A stretch of 64,000 nt of DNA from a virus (lineage: Duplodnaviria > Caudoviricetes): the IMG/VR virus record IMGVR_UViG_3300027672_001796. One strand, given 5' to 3'. Below are positions 6,658 through 57,072 of this stretch, piece by piece; the first letter of the stretch is position 1; each line of letters starts with the position of its first letter. The position numbers were made by a program, and so were the translations under genes. The notes under the pieces were generated by a model, which was given only the letters and a program-made list of their open reading frames with translations, was not told the DNA's origin and made no database searches.

Positions 6658-7635
6658 ATGCATCATCATGAACTAGTAGACCAAGTACATCGATTACTTA
6701 TGGATAATTTGCCCTTAAACTCTGGCAAAACTCCTAGTGGTTGGATAACGTTTGATTGTCCTCTATGTAGCGACAAGAGAAAACGTGCAGGAGTAATTCA
6801 GAGTAATGCTAAAATAAGCTATCACTGTTTTAACTGTAGTTTTACAACTGGCTGGGCACCTAGTCCAAAGTTAGGTCATAAGTACAGGCAACTATGTGAG
6901 ACATTAGGTGTGTCTAACAAGGATATACATAAAGTTGTTTTAGACTTAATGAAGCATTCCGAAGAATTAGAGATAGAAGACAGCACTGAGTATGTTTATA
7001 CAGCGGCTAGTTTCGTAACACATCAATTACCAGAAGAAACTACACTAGTAGAACACATGGAAGATGGACACCCAATTAAAGAATATGCACAACAACGTGG
7101 ATTGCTAGGCAATTTCCCTTTGATGCACATTAACAACAGTCTATACAAAAAACGTTTAGTTGTTCCGTTTCTATATAACAACGAATTAGTAGGATGGACC
7201 GGCAGACACATTAGCCCACCTAACAAAGAAACTGCAAAGTACCTATTAAATGTACAACCAGGCTATGTGTTTAACATAGACAGGTATGTAGACAGTGATA
7301 GAGACTTTGTTATAGTAGTAGAAGGCGTATTTGATGCAATACTTATAGATGGCATAAGTGTTTTGGGTAATAGTGTAACACCTGAACAAGCACATTTGAT
7401 TTCTAAACTTAATAAACGTGTTATACTATGTCCTGATAGAGATAGTGCAGGTAAAGACTTAATAGCAACAGCAGTAGAACTAGGATGGGAAGTAAGTTTT
7501 CCTAAATGGTCGTCTGAATGCAAAGATGTTGCCGATGCAGTAAACAAATATGGCAGGTTATTAACAATGAAGAGCATTACAGAAAATGCAGTTAGTAACG
7601 AACTTAAAATACAAGTTCAGGCAAAAATGCTATGA
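6658..7635 (+). CDS. DNA primase (T4 gp61/DnaG-type TOPRIM)
   Basis: Zn-knuckle CPLC...HCFNC; TOPRIM motifs VVEGVFDA and PDRD; terminal KDVADAV. Confidence 0.9.
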   Translation: MHHHELVDQVHRLLMDNLPLNSGKTPSGWITFDCPLCSDKRKRAGVIQSNAKISYHCFNCSFTTGWAPSPKLGHKYRQLCETLGVSNKDIHKVVLDLMKHSEELEIEDSTEYVYTAASFVTHQLPEETTLVEHMEDGHPIKEYAQQRGLLGNFPLMHINNSLYKKRLVVPFLYNNELVGWTGRHISPPNKETAKYLLNVQPGYVFNIDRYVDSDRDFVIVVEGVFDAILIDGISVLGNSVTPEQAHLISKLNKRVILCPDRDSAGKDLIATAVELGWEVSFPKWSSECKDVADAVNKYGRLLTMKSITENAVSNELKIQVQAKML

Positions 7636-8363: not shown

Positions 8364-9088
8364 ATAATTTGCTTGTGAATGGTTGTAGTTATACAGCAGG
8401 GTCTGGTATGGCTGGCGGAGACAACAATATATCTCCGATAGTATGGTCAAATCATTTAGCAGACAGATTCGATACTGTAGATAATCTTGCAATGGGCGGA
8501 GAGAGTAATGATAGAATAGTACGAACTACATTAGACTTTTGTAATAATCACGATATGACAGACTATGCTGTGATTATACAATGGACGTCAGTATATAGAT
8601 CAGAATATTGGAATGCAGAGAGGAAAGAATGGGTAAATGTTGTTGTAAATAATGGACTTCAGGGTGCAGACGAATGGACACTTAGTACAAACGAGGACAC
8701 CGATGGCAGAATTAGAGATGCATACGATAAAGAAATGAAATGGCTAAATTCGCCAAATGATTATAATATTGCATACTATAATAACATACTAATACTACAA
8801 AACTATTTCGAGTATATGGATATTCCATATATGTTTAGTTGTATGACATTACAAGACCATCCTTGCTGTGACCCAACATTAATGGATCTAATGCATCTAT
8901 TAAATAGAACAACTACAGAAATAAATTTAAGAAGATTGATGGATAAAAGCAAATGGTCAGAATTATCACTTGCAAAGTACTCAGGCGATAACTATATTAG
9001 CCAAGAAGATAGCCATCCAAACTTAAAAGGTAATAAATTAATAGCACAGGCTTTATATAAGGAGCTCATGGAAAAATATGGAAGATAA
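8360..9088 (+). CDS. SGNH-hydrolase-like protein (paralogue of 7632-8363)
   Basis: NGCSYTAG, NLAMGGESNDRI, IQWT, DSHPNLKGNKLI. Confidence 0.75.
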   Translation: MNNLLVNGCSYTAGSGMAGGDNNISPIVWSNHLADRFDTVDNLAMGGESNDRIVRTTLDFCNNHDMTDYAVIIQWTSVYRSEYWNAERKEWVNVVVNNGLQGADEWTLSTNEDTDGRIRDAYDKEMKWLNSPNDYNIAYYNNILILQNYFEYMDIPYMFSCMTLQDHPCCDPTLMDLMHLLNRTTTEINLRRLMDKSKWSELSLAKYSGDNYISQEDSHPNLKGNKLIAQALYKELMEKYGR

Positions 9089-10457
9089 CAACTACACACC
9101 CGAAATACAAGAACTATTTTTAAGGTTTATTGTCAGTGACCCTGAACTATTTGTAAGGGTAAACACTATTGTACGCCCTTATATGTTTGATAAGAAGTTT
9201 CAAAAGACAATAACATTCCTTCAAGAGCATACAACTGAATATAATGCAATACCTACTATTGACCAAATAGAAGCGACAACTGGTTTATTACTAGAGCGTG
9301 TTGAAGGCATTAGTGATAACCATACAGACTGGTTTCTTGATAGTTTAGAAAGATTTTGTAGACACAAAGCACTAGAAAAAGCAATCTTGGATAGCACGGA
9401 CTTATTAGAAACGGGCGATTATGGTGCAGTAGAGAATAAAATTAAAGAAGCAACACAGGTTAGTCTCGTAAAAGACTTAGGTCTTGAATATTTTGAAAAT
9501 CCTAAAGAAAGATTGGAATGGATTAGAGCCCAAAGTGGTGCAACAAGTAGTGGCTGGAAAATGTTTGACCAAAAGTTATATGGTGGCATGAACAGAGGCG
9601 AGATTACAATCTTTGCTGGAGGATCTGGTGCAGGTAAAAGTTTGTTCTTGCAGAACTTAGGTGTTAACTGGGCATTAGCAGGACTTAATGTTGTATACAT
9701 TAGTTTAGAGCTTAGTGAACAACTTATTAGTATGCGTTTAGATGCAATGGTCAGTGAACATAGTACTAGAGACATCATGCGTAATATAGATGATGTTGAT
9801 TTAAAAGTAAGAATGAAAGGTAAGAGTGCAGGCAAGTTCCGTATTAAGCAAATGTCGAGTGGTATTAATGCAAACGATATTAGAGCATACGTTAGAGAGT
9901 ATGAAATCAACCATGATGTTAAAGTAGACTGTTTACTTGTAGATTATTTAGACTTGATGAGTCCTATTAGTACAAAAATTAGTGCTAATGACCAGTTTAT
10001 TAAAGACAAATATGTATCTGAAGAATTGCGTAACATTGCAATGGAAAGAAACATACTATTTGCAACAGCATCTCAGTTAAACAGAGGAGCAGTAGAAGAA
10101 ATTGAATTTGACCACAGTCATATTGCTGGTGGTATTAGTAAAATCCAAACAGCAGATAATGTTGTGGGTATCTTTACTAGTAATGCTATGAGAGAACGTG
10201 GCAGATATCAAATACAGTTTATGAAAACACGTTCTAGTAGTGGAGTGGGCAGTAAAGTAGATTTAAAGTTTAATCCAGACACTTTAAGAGTTACAGATTT
10301 AGATGAAGATGACGATGATGCACTAACAGTAACAACAAATAGCCTAGTTAATCAGCTAAAAAGAACCAATACTATTAAAACAGACGAGCCAGAAGCATCC
10401 AGCACAGTTAACGCGGCATTAAACATTAGAGAGTTCATGAAGAAAAATGATGTCTAA
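9078..10457 (+). CDS. Replicative DNA helicase (T4 gp41/DnaB family)
   Basis: Walker A GGSGAGKS, ISLELSE, Walker B LLVDYLDLM, TASQLNR, QFMKTRSS. Confidence 0.92.
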   Translation: MEDNNYTPEIQELFLRFIVSDPELFVRVNTIVRPYMFDKKFQKTITFLQEHTTEYNAIPTIDQIEATTGLLLERVEGISDNHTDWFLDSLERFCRHKALEKAILDSTDLLETGDYGAVENKIKEATQVSLVKDLGLEYFENPKERLEWIRAQSGATSSGWKMFDQKLYGGMNRGEITIFAGGSGAGKSLFLQNLGVNWALAGLNVVYISLELSEQLISMRLDAMVSEHSTRDIMRNIDDVDLKVRMKGKSAGKFRIKQMSSGINANDIRAYVREYEINHDVKVDCLLVDYLDLMSPISTKISANDQFIKDKYVSEELRNIAMERNILFATASQLNRGAVEEIEFDHSHIAGGISKIQTADNVVGIFTSNAMRERGRYQIQFMKTRSSSGVGSKVDLKFNPDTLRVTDLDEDDDDALTVTTNSLVNQLKRTNTIKTDEPEASSTVNAALNIREFMKKNDV

Positions 10458-12168: not shown

Positions 12169-13449
12169 ATGAATATTAATGAGATAGCAAAGCCTCTTAT
12201 TACACAATTACTTACAGAGAGTCATTTTCAAGAAGGTAAGGAAGGTAAGAATACTCATTTAGAGCATTTAGAGGATAACATCTTTAACAAAGGATATCCC
12301 GGAGCCAAAGAAGCAGTAAATTATTTGTATAGTTTACATGATATGCTAGATGGCAAATCACAACAAGCAGTAAGCATGACAACTAAGTGGGACGGCGCTC
12401 CAGCCATTATTGCTGGCAAAGATCCAGCAACTGGTAAGTTCTTTGTAGGCACCAAAGGCGTATTTGCAAAAATTCCTAAAATGAATTTTACCACTAACGA
12501 CATCAAACTAAATCATCCTGGACAAGATGACCTGCAGAATAAATTAGCATTAGCATTAACTAAATTAAGTAAACTAACTTGGAATACAGTAGCACAGGGA
12601 GATTTTCTTTTTGCGAAAGACACTCTAAGTGAAAAAGAAATTGATGGAGAAAGTTATTTAATTTTTAAACCTAACACATTAGTATATGCTGTGCCTTCCC
12701 AAAGCGAACTGTCTAGTCAGATAGTAAAAAGTGATATAGGTATTGTTTGGCATACAGAATATGTAGGCGGTCCAACATTAGCAGACACTCAAGCAAAGTT
12801 TGGATTTGATAGTAGTGTATTAGGACAAGCACCTGGTGTTTGGCACAGAGATGCAATTATTAAAGACCTTAGTGGCACAGTTACATTTACTGCTACTGAA
12901 AGTGCAGACATTATGTCGGCTATTGCTACAGCAGACCAGTACTTAAAAACTGTAGACCAGGATACATTTGCTTGGTTAGGACAGGGCACAGACTTAGTAG
13001 GCAAAGAGTTCTTACAGCAATTAAAAGCACATGCAAACAATCAAGTAAGGCAAGGACATTTTGACGAACCTACTAAATTTGCACAAGGCTTTGTACAAAA
13101 ATATATAGACTACATGACAAAAGAAATAGACAAAGTTAAAACACAAAAAAGTATCGATGCTAAAACAGAAAAAATGGTAGCAGGCGTTAAATTTATTAGA
13201 GAACATTTACAAAGTATTGTATCAGTGTATGACTTATATTTAAAACTTATTGAAGCAAAAATTAAAATAGTTAAGAAGCTAGAACAAATCCGTGTAATGA
13301 ATACATTTGTACCAACAGAAGATGGATATGAAGTAACAGGCGAAGAAGGCTTTGTTGCAGTTGACAGAATGGGCAATGCATTAAAACTGGTAGACAGATT
13401 AGAGTTTAGTAGACTTAACTTTGGATCAGGTAAACCTAGTGGAAAATAA
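12169..13449 (+). CDS. Ligase-like covalent nucleotidyltransferase (RNA-ligase/capping-enzyme fold), probably head-packaged
   Basis: Motif I TTKWDGAPA, motif III QGDFLF, motif IV EEGFVA, motif V KLVDRLEFS; N-terminal NTHLEHLED; MNINE start. Confidence 0.65.
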   Translation: MNINEIAKPLITQLLTESHFQEGKEGKNTHLEHLEDNIFNKGYPGAKEAVNYLYSLHDMLDGKSQQAVSMTTKWDGAPAIIAGKDPATGKFFVGTKGVFAKIPKMNFTTNDIKLNHPGQDDLQNKLALALTKLSKLTWNTVAQGDFLFAKDTLSEKEIDGESYLIFKPNTLVYAVPSQSELSSQIVKSDIGIVWHTEYVGGPTLADTQAKFGFDSSVLGQAPGVWHRDAIIKDLSGTVTFTATESADIMSAIATADQYLKTVDQDTFAWLGQGTDLVGKEFLQQLKAHANNQVRQGHFDEPTKFAQGFVQKYIDYMTKEIDKVKTQKSIDAKTEKMVAGVKFIREHLQSIVSVYDLYLKLIEAKIKIVKKLEQIRVMNTFVPTEDGYEVTGEEGFVAVDRMGNALKLVDRLEFSRLNFGSGKPSGK

Positions 13450-54730: not shown

Positions 54731-54815
54731 GCCCGAGTGGTGAAATAGGTAAACACAGTAGACTTAAAATCTGCCGCCGACAGGCTTGACGGTTCGATTC
54801 CGTCCTCGGGCACCA
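54731..54815 (+). tRNA. trnL: tRNA-Leu(UAA)
   Basis: GCCCGAG/CTCGGGC, anticodon loop CTTAAAA, long variable arm, GTTCGAT, CCA. Confidence 0.95.
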
Positions 54816-54820
54816 AACTA

Positions 54821-54858
54821 AGTAGGTCTCATTGCCCTACTATAAATAATCGAATGAG
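54821..54858 (+). promoter_or_regulatory. H-type pseudoknot resembling a preQ1-I aptamer, overlapping a TATAAATA late promoter (54841-54848)
   Basis: AGTAGG/CCTACT stem, loop TCTCATTGC, A-rich tail, CTCATT/AATGAG second stem. Confidence 0.4.
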
Positions 54859-54964
54859 TGGTGCACTCGGCCCCTTGGGTTTTATTCCCCAAGTAAAATA
54901 ATTGAATGAATGGTGCCCAGGTATAGGCAACACATAATTATTATTAACTAGCATAAGGAGAAGC

Positions 54965-55138
54965 ATGGCATTGAATAAATCAGAGAGTACTATCAAACGA
55001 GAGAAGGAAGAGTCTGATCGTTTGGTCCAGGAGTATTTAGATAGAGGCGGCAAGGTAACAGTTTGCGAACCTTTTGCTATTTCTCCACCAAGTGAAAACC
55101 CACCCAATAAGTGGGGAGCAAAAAAGAAAGCAGACTGA
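54965..55138 (+). CDS. 57-aa SutA-like RNA-polymerase-binding protein (not in ORF track)
   Basis: TAAGGAG RBS; KEESDRLVQEYLDRGGKVTVCEP...PPNKWG resembles the recalled SutA core ERDAL...EEFLSRGGKVQEIEP...PDSKYG. Confidence 0.65.
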   Translation: MALNKSESTIKREKEESDRLVQEYLDRGGKVTVCEPFAISPPSENPPNKWGAKKKAD

Positions 55139-55186: not shown

Positions 55187-55699
55187 ATGAAAGAATTTAT
55201 AAAAAGTGCAGGGTTATTGTTAGGTTGCATTGCTCTTGCAAGATTCATTGACTTGCCAGCAAATGTAACGCCATTTATGGCAATGGCAGTCTTTATGCCA
55301 TACATGACAAGCAATCGCTTGTTACAACTAGCACTTCCAACTACACTATTGTTTGCCACAGACCTTATAATTGGGCTATATGGACCGCTTATGCTGTTTG
55401 TATACGGCACTATGCTCCTCACAGGGCTCTTGTCTCGGCTTTTACATAAGGATAACATACAAACACTACTGGGTACTTCTGTGTTAAGTGTTGTTTTATG
55501 GCACTTTATTGTTAACGGAGCAGTGGTATTCTTTGGTAGTGGCTTTGGCCCATTAACACCAGAAGCATTATTGTTTGATATACGATTGCTTGTAAGTACA
55601 CTTGTATTTTCAAGTATGTTTTATGGAGTAAGGAGTTTGTTTACACAAGAACAAGCAGATATAATACAAATAAGTGAATATAAAAATGTCAGACTTTAA
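55187..55699 (+). CDS. Multi-pass membrane protein, ECF S-component-like (DUF6580/CblT-type)
   Basis: About five hydrophobic helices; ARF..LPANVTP..AMAVF, L..TDLIIG.Y, W..IVN, FDIRLLVSTL.FS. Confidence 0.55.
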   Translation: MKEFIKSAGLLLGCIALARFIDLPANVTPFMAMAVFMPYMTSNRLLQLALPTTLLFATDLIIGLYGPLMLFVYGTMLLTGLLSRLLHKDNIQTLLGTSVLSVVLWHFIVNGAVVFFGSGFGPLTPEALLFDIRLLVSTLVFSSMFYGVRSLFTQEQADIIQISEYKNVRL

Positions 55700-56234
55700 A
55701 TTAGATTTAGTTGATGCTAGGAATCCAGCACTTCATACAGTAGCAAGTGTTAATCCATTTGACGACAAAGAAGCAAATTGGGAAGAACGTGAACAAGAGA
55801 TGTTTGGACTTATGGAAAGACGTATGGGAGTTGGCTTAGCCTCTCCACAGATAGGCATGGGTTATAGAATGTTTGTAATGACATTCGAATCAGGCGAAAA
55901 TATCGGGATATACAATCCAGAAATTATAGAATCGAGTGACGAAACAGCACCAATGGAAGAAGGATGTTTAACATTCCCATTATTGTATTTTATTGTTACT
56001 AGACCAGCAAAAGTTAAAGTTAAATTTCAAACAACAGATGGCACAGAAGTTGAAGATTGGTTAGAAGGTAGAGATGCAAGATGCTTTCAACACGAGTTAG
56101 ACCACTTAAACGGTAAACTATACCTAGAGTATGCAAGTGACATGAAACTTAAACGTGCAATGAAGAAACGTGATAAACTGTTTAATACGTTCAAGTTGGA
56201 CCAGGACTTGCAACGATTAGATAATGAGTCTTAA
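55686..56234 (+). CDS. def: Peptide deformylase
   Basis: GVGLASPQIG, EEGCLT, FQHELDHLNG. Confidence 0.95.
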   Translation: MSDFKLDLVDARNPALHTVASVNPFDDKEANWEEREQEMFGLMERRMGVGLASPQIGMGYRMFVMTFESGENIGIYNPEIIESSDETAPMEEGCLTFPLLYFIVTRPAKVKVKFQTTDGTEVEDWLEGRDARCFQHELDHLNGKLYLEYASDMKLKRAMKKRDKLFNTFKLDQDLQRLDNES

Positions 56235-57072
56235 TTACCCGTTCTGGGTAAATGACTTTGATAGAGTTAGAGACTACAAAGAACAATTCCCACTAGCAAC
56301 TAAAATATTTGAAAACCCAGTTTCTTTTTGGTACGGCAGTCGTAACGGAAAAGAGATGGAACAAATTGACTACAGCCTTCAACGTCTATTGCGTAGAACG
56401 GCTCCTCAGTTGCCCGTATTAGTCGTGTACAACATGCCTAATAGAGATGTGGGGCAATACAGTAAAGGTGGTGCTACAACAAGGGAAAGTTATTTGGATT
56501 TTCTTAAGAGTTTTGCTGATGGCATAGGTAGTAACAAGCCTATTCTTATATTCGAACCAGATAGTTTAACTCACACAGGTGATATGAATGATGTTGAAGC
56601 ACAGGACCGTATAAGTTTAATGAAAGAAGGCTTACAATTACTCACAGACAATTGTGATGCATTAGTATATATTGATATAGGGCATAGTAATTGGCTTAGT
56701 CCAGCTGAAGCATCTAAGTTGTTGGATAAAGTAACAAATCATAAGGTCAGAGGTTTTGCAGTTAATGTAAGTAACTACAGAACAACAAAAGAGAGTATGG
56801 AATGGAGTTTAAAACTTTGTGAACATAGACCAAATGATTATTTTGTTATAGACACTAGTCGTAATGGCAATGGCCCACATGGCAATGAGTGGTGTAACCC
56901 ACCAGGTAGAGCAGTAGGTGAAGAACCAACATGTGATACTGGTGAAGAACAATGTGATGCATTCCTATGGATTAAAATACCCGGTGAAAGTGATGGCAAA
57001 CTAAACAATGGTCCTAGAGCTGGAAGGTTCTGGGGAGAAATGGCGGAGGATTTAGTAAAAAATGTTAATTAA
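56224..57072 (+). CDS. Glycoside hydrolase family 6 (cellulase-like) catalytic domain
   Basis: VYNMPNRD, IFEPDSL, YIDIGHSNWL, RGFAVNVSNY, FVIDTSRNG, WCNPPGRAVG, DAFLWIKIPGESDG. Confidence 0.9.
   Translation: MSLNYPFWVNDFDRVRDYKEQFPLATKIFENPVSFWYGSRNGKEMEQIDYSLQRLLRRTAPQLPVLVVYNMPNRDVGQYSKGGATTRESYLDFLKSFADGIGSNKPILIFEPDSLTHTGDMNDVEAQDRISLMKEGLQLLTDNCDALVYIDIGHSNWLSPAEASKLLDKVTNHKVRGFAVNVSNYRTTKESMEWSLKLCEHRPNDYFVIDTSRNGNGPHGNEWCNPPGRAVGEEPTCDTGEEQCDAFLWIKIPGESDGKLNNGPRAGRFWGEMAEDLVKNVN

What the first reader, a model, noticed from the sequence alone, without database searches (positions are those of the whole stretch)
54965..55138. Phage-encoded SutA-like RNA polymerase binder lacking the acidic N-tail
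Seen: a 57-aa ORF missed by the track, with a perfect TAAGGAG RBS: MALNKSESTIKREKEESDRLVQEYLDRGGKVTVCEPFAISPPSENPPNKWGAKKKAD. Established (recalled): Pseudomonas SutA binds the RNAP beta-1 lobe via a helix ending EEFLSRGGKVQEIEP, followed by a Pro-rich tail ending KYG; it supports rRNA and ribosomal-protein transcription in dormant cells and has a long acidic N-tail important for activation. Inference: the phage either boosts RNAP in starved oligotrophic hosts or uses a tail-less mimic to occupy the site and redirect RNAP to phage promoters. It also points to a gammaproteobacterial host.
Basis: partly seen in the sequence, partly recalled or inferred. Interest (0 to 1): 0.75.

Follow-up and report, generated by a model that had tools for sequence, protein, structure and literature searches.

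The report
Phage mini-SutA lacking the acidic tail
An uncultured ~340-360 kb marine jumbo phage carries a real, conserved 57-residue gene that is a remote relative of only the RNA-polymerase-docking half of the Pseudomonas dormancy regulator SutA. It probably sits on the host polymerase without being able to activate it, but no binding has been tested.

Summary
The ORF is real: ATG at 54965, TAAGGAG 4 nt upstream, 70-91% identical homologues in marine metagenomes, and pN/pS 0.22.

The SutA resemblance also holds, at sub-threshold scores. NCBIfam SutA gives E 3.5e-6 and PDB 7F0R chain G gives E 1.1e-4 over a gapless 43 residues. A phage-family HMM finds SutA in 26 of 30 bacterial loci with no false positive among 1200 ORFs. 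hhalign gives 96% probability. The AF2 helix (residues 7-26) coincides with SutA helix 57-76.

The protein starts at SutA residue ~51, so it has no acidic N-domain. It ends in a Lys-rich tail where bacterial SutA ends in SRPI.

It belongs to a family of about 35 clusters of 49-77 aa proteins. All 13 genomic contexts examined look like large phages, and five relatives' records imply ~360 kb genomes. Eight cultured phages tested lack it.

The C-terminal half of the published docking interface is kept (M71, F74, L75, GG, V81, I84). K60, R64 and L67 are not.

Published SutA deltaN inhibits rrn transcription, so the best reading is a beta-protrusion binder that occupies or dampens rather than activates. 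That step is inferred.

The gammaproteobacterial-host inference is weak. I found no paper on phage SutA homologues, although automatic annotation already labels similar viral clusters "SutA-RBD".

The parts
54954..54960 (+). Shine-Dalgarno sequence TAAGGAG, 4 nt before the ATG
   Evidence: Read directly. Relatives L001-L006 lack it; there a small upstream ORF overlaps the start instead.
54965..55138 (+). 57-aa mini-SutA gene (P0001), stop codon included
   Evidence: homologues; synteny; pN/pS 0.22; SutA matches.
54983..55042 (+). Residues 7-26: predicted alpha-helix, equivalent to SutA helix 57-76 (phage residue = SutA residue minus 50)
   Evidence: AF2 helix 7-26, mean pLDDT 71. Gapless alignment to 7f0r_G. 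Helix limits from PMC9300723.
55046..55072 (+). Residues 28-36, GGKVTVCEP: Gly-Gly turn and short strand, equivalent to SutA G78-P86, the part that adds a strand to the beta protrusion
   Evidence: G28 is invariant and G29 is G or N in 34 family members; V31 is I/V; C34 (29/34) stands where bacteria have V/I. Roles of these residues from PMC9300723.
55073..55117 (+). Residues 37-51: Pro-rich tail ending KWG, equivalent to the SutA C-tail PPKKPDSKYG
   Evidence: Aligned without gaps. W50 in 30/34 and G51 in 29/34 phage members, against Y and G in 26/26 bacterial SutA.
55118..55135 (+). Residues 52-57: Lys-rich C-terminal end (AKKKAD) that replaces the bacterial SRPI ending
   Evidence: Family median is 4 K/R in the 6 residues after WG; bacteria have a fixed 4-residue end with 1 K/R.
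54835..54920 (+). Conserved non-coding element in the leader, between tRNA-Leu (54731-54815) and the gene; context only, function unknown
   Evidence: Nearly invariant between the window and L001/L003, while the flanks diverge. No Rfam match at E<=1. Perfect-match contigs from RNA libraries of two studies span 54788-54975 and 54792-55023.

Best explanation
The gene encodes a 6.4-kDa phage protein homologous to SutA residues ~51-105, that is the RNAP-binding helix, the Gly-Gly turn, the short strand and the Pro-rich C-tail. It has none of the acidic disordered N-terminal domain and carries a Lys-rich end instead. Most likely it docks on the beta protrusion (beta1 domain) of the host RNA polymerase, on which this phage lineage probably depends. 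Without the N-domain that guides the wedge loop and opens the beta lobe, it cannot activate as SutA does. It would occupy the site, dampen or re-bias host initiation as engineered SutA deltaN does on rrn, and exclude host SutA if the host has one. The basic tail may contact nearby DNA or the acidic loop of sigma70. Shown: the gene is real, it is homologous to SutA, it has this architecture, and the family is found in phage contexts. Inferred: binding to RNAP and the direction of the effect. Sub-probabilities: homology ~0.85; RNAP beta-protrusion binding ~0.55-0.6; net occupier or inhibitor ~0.35-0.4.
For: Sequence matches: NCBIfam SutA E 3.5e-6, residues 11-53 on profile 65-107/109. PDB 7f0r_G SutA E 1.1e-4, the next hit at 0.79. 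The family profile against PDB again puts SutA first. 27/34 family members hit Pfam SutA-RBD at E<=0.1 and 9/34 hit NCBIfam SutA at E<=0.01. Reciprocal test: the phage HMM recovers the SutA ORF in 26/30 bacterial loci, with no other hit among 1200 ORFs. hhalign gives 96.1%, E 3e-9 over 44 columns. Structure: the AF2 helix 7-26 coincides with the SutA helix. Interface positions M71, F74, L75, G78, G79, V81 and I84 are conserved or conservatively replaced across the family. The N-segment before the helix has a median of 4.5 aa and charge +0.5 in phages, against 36 aa and -6.5 in bacteria. Literature: the RBD (57-90) alone binds the beta protrusion, and the NTD is needed for activation (PMC9300723). 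DeltaN (41-105) inhibits transcription dose-dependently (10.1101/423384). The closest cultured relative by helicase, PA5oct, depends on host RNAP (PMC7318152).
Against: All scores are below the curated cut-offs: 27.8 against 145 bits, and 15.3 against 29.3 bits. K60, R64 and L67, each needed for the yeast two-hybrid interaction in P. aeruginosa, are polar or variable in the phage family (PMC9300723). The helix-FLxxGG segment alone also gives weak hits to exendin-4 and a designed protein, so part of the similarity is a common helix-cap motif. The monomer model gave no structural match, as expected for a helix plus coil. The host is unknown and may lack SutA. No complex could be modelled. Expression evidence is limited to RNA-library contigs over the leader and the first 59 nt of the gene.
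Confidence: 0.5

Rival explanations
1. It binds the beta protrusion but acts positively for the phage. The Lys-rich tail would replace the acidic N-tail as the effector, for instance by contacting upstream or spacer DNA or the acidic loop of sigma70, so that RNAP is stabilised on phage promoters.
For: The basic tail is a family-wide feature. The SutA C-tail lies near the top of beta1 and is influenced by the sigma70 acidic loop (10.1101/423384). The gene is kept under purifying selection in a lineage likely to depend on host RNAP.
Against: No known SutA activity resides in the C-tail: deltaC still activates and deltaN inhibits. There is no promoter or DNA-binding evidence here.
Confidence: 0.2
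2. It is specifically a dominant-negative competitor of host SutA. It would block the host's slow-growth transcription programme, which requires a SutA-bearing host of the Pseudomonadales/Alteromonadales type.
For: It has the same docking module without the activating domain. SutA was found in 89/151 genomes of one gammaproteobacterial order but in only 2/301 of a class-wide sample, and both of those two reappear in the order-level sample. The helicase is 56% identical to that of Pseudomonas phage PA5oct.
Against: The host is unknown. The family is diversified, down to ~30% identity, across many large phages and is absent from PA5oct itself. Other genes in the window resemble cyanophage, pelagiphage and Methylophilales-phage genes.
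Confidence: 0.15
3. It does not bind RNAP. The helix-GG-strand module would be a generic small-protein fold shared with SutA and the PFL_1563 small proteins, and here it binds another partner.
For: Scores are sub-threshold and three interface residues are lost. The PFL_1563 family (function unknown) shares the helix-GG segment and its HMM cross-hits SutA loci. Weak hits to exendin-4 and a designed protein show that the motif recurs.
Against: The similarity extends beyond the helix cap through the strand, EP, PP..P and [YW]G without gaps. The reciprocal search was specific. The phage HMM scores SutA at up to 31 bits but PFL_1563 proteins at only ~12 bits.
Confidence: 0.2
4. It is a spurious ORF in a non-coding leader.
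For: It is short, and a 92-aa ORF overlaps it on the minus strand.
Against: It has full-length protein conservation, pN/pS 0.22, a strong SD and a family of ~35 clusters.
Confidence: 0.02

Closest known systems
SutA of Pseudomonas aeruginosa (NF041490; Pfam PF20661 SutA-RBD; PDB 7F0R/7XL3/7XL4)
   Same: Helix of the same length and register, Gly-Gly turn, short strand ending EP, and a Pro-rich tail ending K-[YW]-G. The alignment is gapless over 43-45 residues. The hydrophobic interface positions M71, F74, L75, V81 and I84 are kept.
   Different: The 50-55-residue D/E-rich N-domain, which is needed for activation, is absent. The wedge-loop sequence is unrelated. K60, R64 and L67 are not conserved, and a hydrophobic residue at position 20 stands where bacteria have D/E/A. 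A Cys replaces I84. The end is Lys-rich instead of SRPI. It is phage-encoded, and scores are far below the curated cut-offs.
Engineered SutA deltaN (residues 41-105; Bergkessel et al., 10.1101/423384) and the ~6-kDa truncated SutA species seen on P. aeruginosa western blots (10.64898/2026.06.26.734693)
   Same: Nearly the same span of the protein (RBD plus C-tail) and about the same size (6.4 kDa). DeltaN still binds RNAP but inhibits rrn transcription.
   Different: Those are derivatives of a bacterial protein. The phage protein is a natural, independently evolving gene with a different N-terminal helix half and a basic tail. Its activity is untested.
Short bacterial SutA homologues (65-68 aa) in the order holding G229
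   Same: The N-tail is reduced and the RBD and C-tail are intact. The literature notes homologues lacking most of the first 40 residues.
   Different: They still keep at least 16 residues, mostly acidic, before the helix, as well as the invariant R64, L/M67 and YGSRPI.
PFL_1563 family small proteins (NF058628)
   Same: About 50-60 aa bacterial mini-proteins with a helix ending FLKxGG followed by a strand. The family HMM cross-hits SutA loci.
   Different: They lack the PP..P..[YW]G tail. P0001 gives no hit at E<=10, only 3/34 family members hit weakly, and the phage HMM scores them at ~12 bits. Their function is unknown.
Small phage RNAP modulators (T7 Gp2, T4 AsiA and the like; named from general knowledge, Gp2 also cited in PMC9300723)
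   Same: The concept is the same: a very small phage protein that docks on host RNAP to redirect or inhibit it.
   Different: There is no sequence relation. They bind other sites (beta' jaw, sigma region 4). To my knowledge no phage factor has been described at the SutA groove of the beta protrusion.
Viral clusters automatically named 'SutA RNAP-binding domain-containing protein' in the ESM Atlas
   Same: A 57-aa cluster whose one phylum-assigned member is viral, with PF20661 on 87% of its 60 members, is among the nearest neighbours (score 0.85, a lead only).
   Different: This is an automatic label only. No paper in the searched library describes phage SutA homologues.

Membership tests
SutA (NCBIfam NF041490, equivalog) | Whole-protein score above the curated cut-off (145 bits) | tested here: not met
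   27.8 bits, E 3.5e-6, covering only profile positions 65-107 of 109.
SutA-RBD domain (Pfam PF20661) | Score above the gathering threshold (29.3 bits) | tested here: not met
   P0001 scores 15.3 bits, E 0.013. 27/34 family members hit at E<=0.1, best E 3.9e-7. The best individual score seen was 26.8 bits.
SutA-RBD domain (homology in the wider sense) | Profile-profile and reciprocal sequence relationship over helix, GG, strand and C-tail | tested here: met
   hhalign 96.1%, E 3e-9, 44 columns. The phage HMM finds SutA in 26/30 loci with no other hit among 1200 ORFs. SutA is the top PDB hit for both the single sequence and the profile.
SutA | Central helix (57-76) followed by a short strand (81-84) | tested here: met
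   AF2 predicts a helix at 7-26, in exact register with 57-76. The strand is not formed in the monomer model, as expected for a strand that pairs with RNAP (PMC9300723).
SutA | Ten RNAP-interface residues validated by mutagenesis (K60, R64, L67, M71, F74, L75, G78, G79, V81, I84) | tested here: inconclusive
   Seven are conserved or conservatively replaced in the family (V/I, Y/F/W, L, G, G/N, I/V, C). K60, R64 and L67 are variable and polar.
SutA | Acidic, disordered N-terminal domain required for activation | tested here: not met
   Only 6 residues precede the helix and the protein's net charge is about +1. The family median is 4.5 residues and +0.5, against 36 residues and -6.5 in bacteria. 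No upstream in-frame start exists.
SutA | Conserved C-tail ADPP[KR]KPxSxYGSRPI | tested here: inconclusive
   PP, P and K-W-G align without gaps. The SRPI end is replaced by a Lys-rich end.
SutA | Binds the RNAP beta protrusion (beta1) and raises open-complex formation | not testable with these tools
   No complex prediction or assay was available. The monomer fold search was uninformative.
SutA | Chromosomal gene of the Pseudomonadales/Alteromonadales | tested here: not met
   The gene lies in a jumbo-phage genome. Bacterial SutA was found in 89/151 genomes of one order and in 2/301 of a class-wide sample.
PFL_1563 family small protein (NF058628) | Score above the cut-off (60 bits) | tested here: not met
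   P0001 gives no hit at E<=10. Three of 34 relatives give weak hits, best E 1.9e-4.

The most novel reading that the evidence does not exclude
A lineage of ~360-kb aquatic jumbo phages carries a family of 50-70-residue proteins that are natural 'deltaN SutA' molecules. They would be the first phage factors to target the SutA groove on the RNAP beta protrusion. They would act as dominant-negative blockers of lobe opening, or as tethers whose basic tail retunes promoter use, and so help convert host RNAP to phage use in slow-growing oligotrophic hosts.
Probability: 0.35. Interest if true: 0.7.

Novelty: new variant of a known kind. Interest (0 to 1): 0.55.

Why it matters
SutA is one of the few known regulators that act through the beta protrusion and lobe of bacterial RNA polymerase, and until now it has been treated as a narrow bacterial curiosity.

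A phage family that keeps only the docking half would give a natural separation-of-function variant of SutA. It would also give a candidate for a new class of phage RNAP modulators at a site that no known phage factor uses. Finally, it offers a handle on how abundant marine jumbo phages take over transcription in slow-growing hosts.

It is directly testable with a 57-residue peptide. It matters less if the protein only resembles SutA and binds something else.

Tried and rejected
- **GenBank phages by tblastn:** P0001 and P0069 gave no match at E<=1. This is too insensitive for 57 residues to show absence.
- **Pattern scans:** The genome-contig scan with A2 failed for lack of a conserved block. 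With A3 it returned only two chance-like hits, an SRPBCC-type 178-aa protein and a 63-aa Acidobacteria ORF. The viral-contig scan with A1 found nothing. The scan with P0003 found 8 relatives.
- **False positives in the exhaustive HMM search:** Many long repeat proteins of the FNIP/LRR type (KITTCxPFAK) matched by their repeats and were discarded.
- **Fold search:** Foldseek of the monomer model against PDB gave nothing usable.
- **Phage-encoded RNAP:** There was no Rpb2_6 hit in two partial relatives. This is not conclusive, because the records are fragments and phage RNAPs are divergent. The 344-kb ENA contig behind L001 is not held and was not searched.
- **Split-SutA idea:** In relatives L001-L006 an acidic 53-aa ORF overlaps the start. 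I rejected it as a general feature because it is absent from the window and upstream genes differ in every other family locus.
- **TATAAATA late promoter upstream:** It is not enriched in the window (11 against 10.2 expected) and not conserved in L001/L003.
- **Expression:** RNA-library contigs cover 54788-55023 only. Nothing covers the rest of the gene, which proves nothing either way. The first read laying attempt failed.
- **Host:** It could not be determined. The marine jumbo-phage paper PMC9123017 gave no host for this lineage in the passages read.

Full report
**Observation**

The window has an ORF at 54965..55138 (+) that translates to exactly the 57 residues quoted. TAAGGAG lies at 54954-54960, 4 nt before the ATG. 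No in-frame start lies further upstream, so the short N-terminus is genuine.

The ORF is a gene rather than chance:
- Five protein clusters of the same length are 70-91% identical to it in marine metagenomes.
- The 79%-identical form sits at the same position in related contigs of up to 344 kb: tRNA cluster, this ORF, DUF6580, peptide deformylase, GH6.
- Against that copy, 19.5 synonymous and 16.5 non-synonymous differences fall on 35 and 136 sites, giving pN/pS 0.22.
- The same 2-kb stretch is held near-identically in marine metagenomes of more than ten studies.
- Contigs from RNA libraries of two studies cover 54788-54975 and 54792-55023 without a mismatch. This is only a weak hint of transcription.

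**What kind of genome this is**

No whole genome is held for the window. The window encodes a DnaB-like helicase, class I ribonucleotide reductase, a methyltransferase, five tRNAs and many unknown proteins, at about 37% G+C.

The helicase is 56% identical to that of the Pseudomonas jumbo phage PA5oct and 44-51% identical to those of Agrobacterium, Sinorhizobium and Salicola jumbo phages. Another gene is about 40% identical to proteins of cyanomyophages, Methylophilales phage Melnitz and pelagimyophage HTVC008M.

Earlier notes of this scan call it a ~340-kb marine jumbo phage. That agrees with the 344-kb contig and with the IMG/VR relatives: records of 44-203 kb have CheckV completeness of 12-57%, which implies genomes of about 360 kb. 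PA5oct has no RNAP of its own and depends on host RNAP (PMC7318152). I found no Rpb2-like domain in two partial relatives, but that result is not conclusive.

**Is it SutA-like?**

Yes, as a remote homologue.
- NCBIfam's SutA model matches residues 11-53 to profile positions 65-107 of 109 at E 3.5e-6.
- Pfam SutA-RBD matches at E 0.013.
- In the PDB the only significant hit is SutA itself (7f0r_G), at E 1.1e-4 with a gapless 43-residue alignment. The next hit is at E 0.79.

All of these are far below the curated cut-offs, so I tested the relationship independently.

An exhaustive profile search of 1.8 billion representatives gave about 35 clusters of 49-93-aa proteins (49-77 aa in the 34-member alignment). 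They share one architecture: short N-end, helix, GGK(I/V)T-x-CEP, a variable stretch, WG, then a Lys/Arg run. The search also returned repeat-protein false positives, which I discarded.
- Of 34 members, 27 hit Pfam SutA-RBD at E<=0.1 and 9 hit NCBIfam SutA at E<=0.01.
- I collected bacterial SutA homologues from genomes. They occur in 89 of 151 genomes in one gammaproteobacterial order, but in only 2 of 301 in a class-wide sample, and both of those two reappear in the order-level sample.
- An HMM of the phage family recovered the SutA ORF in 26 of 30 bacterial loci, with no other hit up to E=10 among 1200 ORFs.
- hhalign of the two alignments gave 96.1% probability and E 3e-9 over 44 columns.
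- AF2 predicts one helix, residues 7-26. With the offset fixed by the alignment (phage residue = SutA residue minus 50), this is exactly the SutA helix 57-76 (PMC9300723).

**Anatomy compared with SutA**

The phage protein begins at the equivalent of SutA residue 51.
- **N-end.** Six residues precede the helix. The family median is 4.5 residues with net charge +0.5. The 26 bacterial homologues have a median of 36 residues and -6.5, and never fewer than 16.
- **Docking interface.** Ten SutA residues are known whose substitution impairs binding to the beta protrusion (PMC9300723). Those in the C-terminal half of the helix, the turn and the strand are kept across the family:

| SutA residue | Phage family |
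|---|---|
| M71 | V/I |
| F74 | Y/F/W |
| L75 | L |
| G78 | G (34/34) |
| G79 | G/N |
| V81 | I/V |
| I84 | Cys (29/34) |

- **Lost contacts.** The three residues in the N-terminal half of the helix are nearly invariant in bacteria (K60, R64, L67) but variable and polar in the phage family. The phage family instead has a conserved Leu or Met one turn later, at position 20.
- **C-tail.** The tail aligns through EP, PP, P and K-[WY]-G. The bacterial SRPI end is replaced by a Lys-rich end, with a median of 4 K/R in the next 6 residues.

So the phage family has exchanged an acidic N-tail for a basic C-tail.

**How it most likely works**

The following is shown in the literature:
- SutA residues 57-90 alone bind the beta protrusion.
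- The N-domain is needed to guide the wedge loop and open the beta lobe.
- Deleting the N-domain abolishes activation (PMC9300723).
- A 2026 preprint also reports a ~6-kDa truncated SutA species in P. aeruginosa.

The following is inferred here. The phage protein docks in the same groove of the host beta protrusion, cannot open the lobe, and therefore occupies or dampens rather than activates. It would exclude host SutA if the host has one. The basic tail may add a contact with DNA or with the sigma70 acidic loop, near which the SutA C-tail lies.

I put homology at about 0.85, RNAP binding at about 0.55-0.6 and the occupier or inhibitor reading at about 0.35-0.4.

The rivals are a positive role through the basic tail, a strict anti-SutA role, and a different binding partner altogether. 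The loss of K60, R64 and L67 is the main internal evidence against simple SutA-like docking. The recurrence of the helix-FLxxGG cap in unrelated peptides is a second caution.

**Distribution and host**

All 13 family contexts examined look like large phages: the window, four ENA/JGI loci and eight IMG/VR loci. One IMG/VR record has two copies.

A six-frame profile search found no copy in PA5oct, Atu_ph07, SCTP-2, Phosso, HTVC008M, Melnitz, S-8S53 or DLP_6. The same search found 5 of 5 positive controls. The family therefore looks specific to an uncultured jumbo-phage lineage.

The host remains unknown. SutA's narrow bacterial range and the PA5oct-like helicase lean towards a gammaproteobacterium. 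However, the family's depth of divergence and the window's mosaic affinities make this a weak inference.

**Comparison with what is known, and novelty**

The gene is not a member of the SutA equivalog. It fails the score cut-off and lacks the defining acidic N-domain. It is best described as a phage-borne, RBD-plus-C-tail-only variant of the SutA domain family.
- Bacterial homologues with shortened N-tails are known, but those I saw keep an acidic stub and the full interface.
- A separate bacterial mini-protein family, PFL_1563 (NF058628), shares only the helix-GG part.
- No paper in the searched library mentions phage SutA homologues.
- Automatic annotation in the ESM Atlas already labels a 57-aa viral cluster "SutA RNAP-binding domain-containing protein" (a lead only).

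I therefore rate it a new variant of a known kind and moderately interesting. It is a cheap, well-defined experimental target, but its function is unproven.

Noticed in passing
window 54835-54920: An ~85-nt non-coding element between tRNA-Leu and the gene is almost invariant between the window and L001/L003, while the flanking DNA diverges. It contains an imperfect direct repeat (GAATGAGTGGTGC / GAATGAATGGTGC) and a T-arm-like hairpin (CTTGGG...CCCAAG). No Rfam family matches at E<=1, including preQ1. RNA-library contigs span it.
   Followed up: partly
L001 9853-10014 (also L002, L004-L006; shorter in L003 at 7493-7618): Close relatives carry an acidic 53-aa ORF (net charge -9) whose end overlaps the mini-SutA start by 14 nt in another frame. 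The window has lost it and has a strong TAAGGAG instead. Upstream genes differ in all other family loci, so it is probably a separate gene and not a detached SutA N-tail.
   Followed up: partly
IMG/VR record G455 (L057 at 5-166 and L061 at 1480-1668): One related phage fragment carries two family members. The second is much more divergent (E 1.4e-6 against 8.8e-21).
   Followed up: no
bacterial loci L062-L067 and the table: The PFL_1563 small-protein family (NF058628) occurs in 58/101 genomes of the SutA-bearing order, with up to 9 matches in one genome. Its HMM also hits the SutA genes themselves, so it shares the helix-FLxxGG-strand module with SutA. Its function is unknown.
   Followed up: partly
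proteins P0008, P0009, P0043: Long repeat proteins with 'KITTCxPFAK' units (FNIP/LRR-like) score up to E 1e-16 against the mini-protein profile purely through repeats. This is a trap for anyone annotating the family by HMM.
   Followed up: yes
window 9078-10457 and 12169-13449: The phage has mosaic affinities. The helicase is 56% identical to that of Pseudomonas jumbo phage PA5oct, while a neighbouring gene is ~40% identical to proteins of cyanomyophages, Methylophilales phage Melnitz and pelagimyophage HTVC008M.
   Followed up: partly
window 55187-57072: Directly downstream lie a DUF6580 membrane-like protein, a peptide deformylase and a glycoside hydrolase family 6 homologue. The Pfam labels come from the syntenic genes of L001. 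A GH6 gene is an unusual cargo for a marine phage.
   Followed up: no
window 54841-54848 and the whole window: TATAAATA occurs 11 times in the window against 10.2 expected by chance. The copy upstream of this gene is not conserved in L001/L003.
   Followed up: yes
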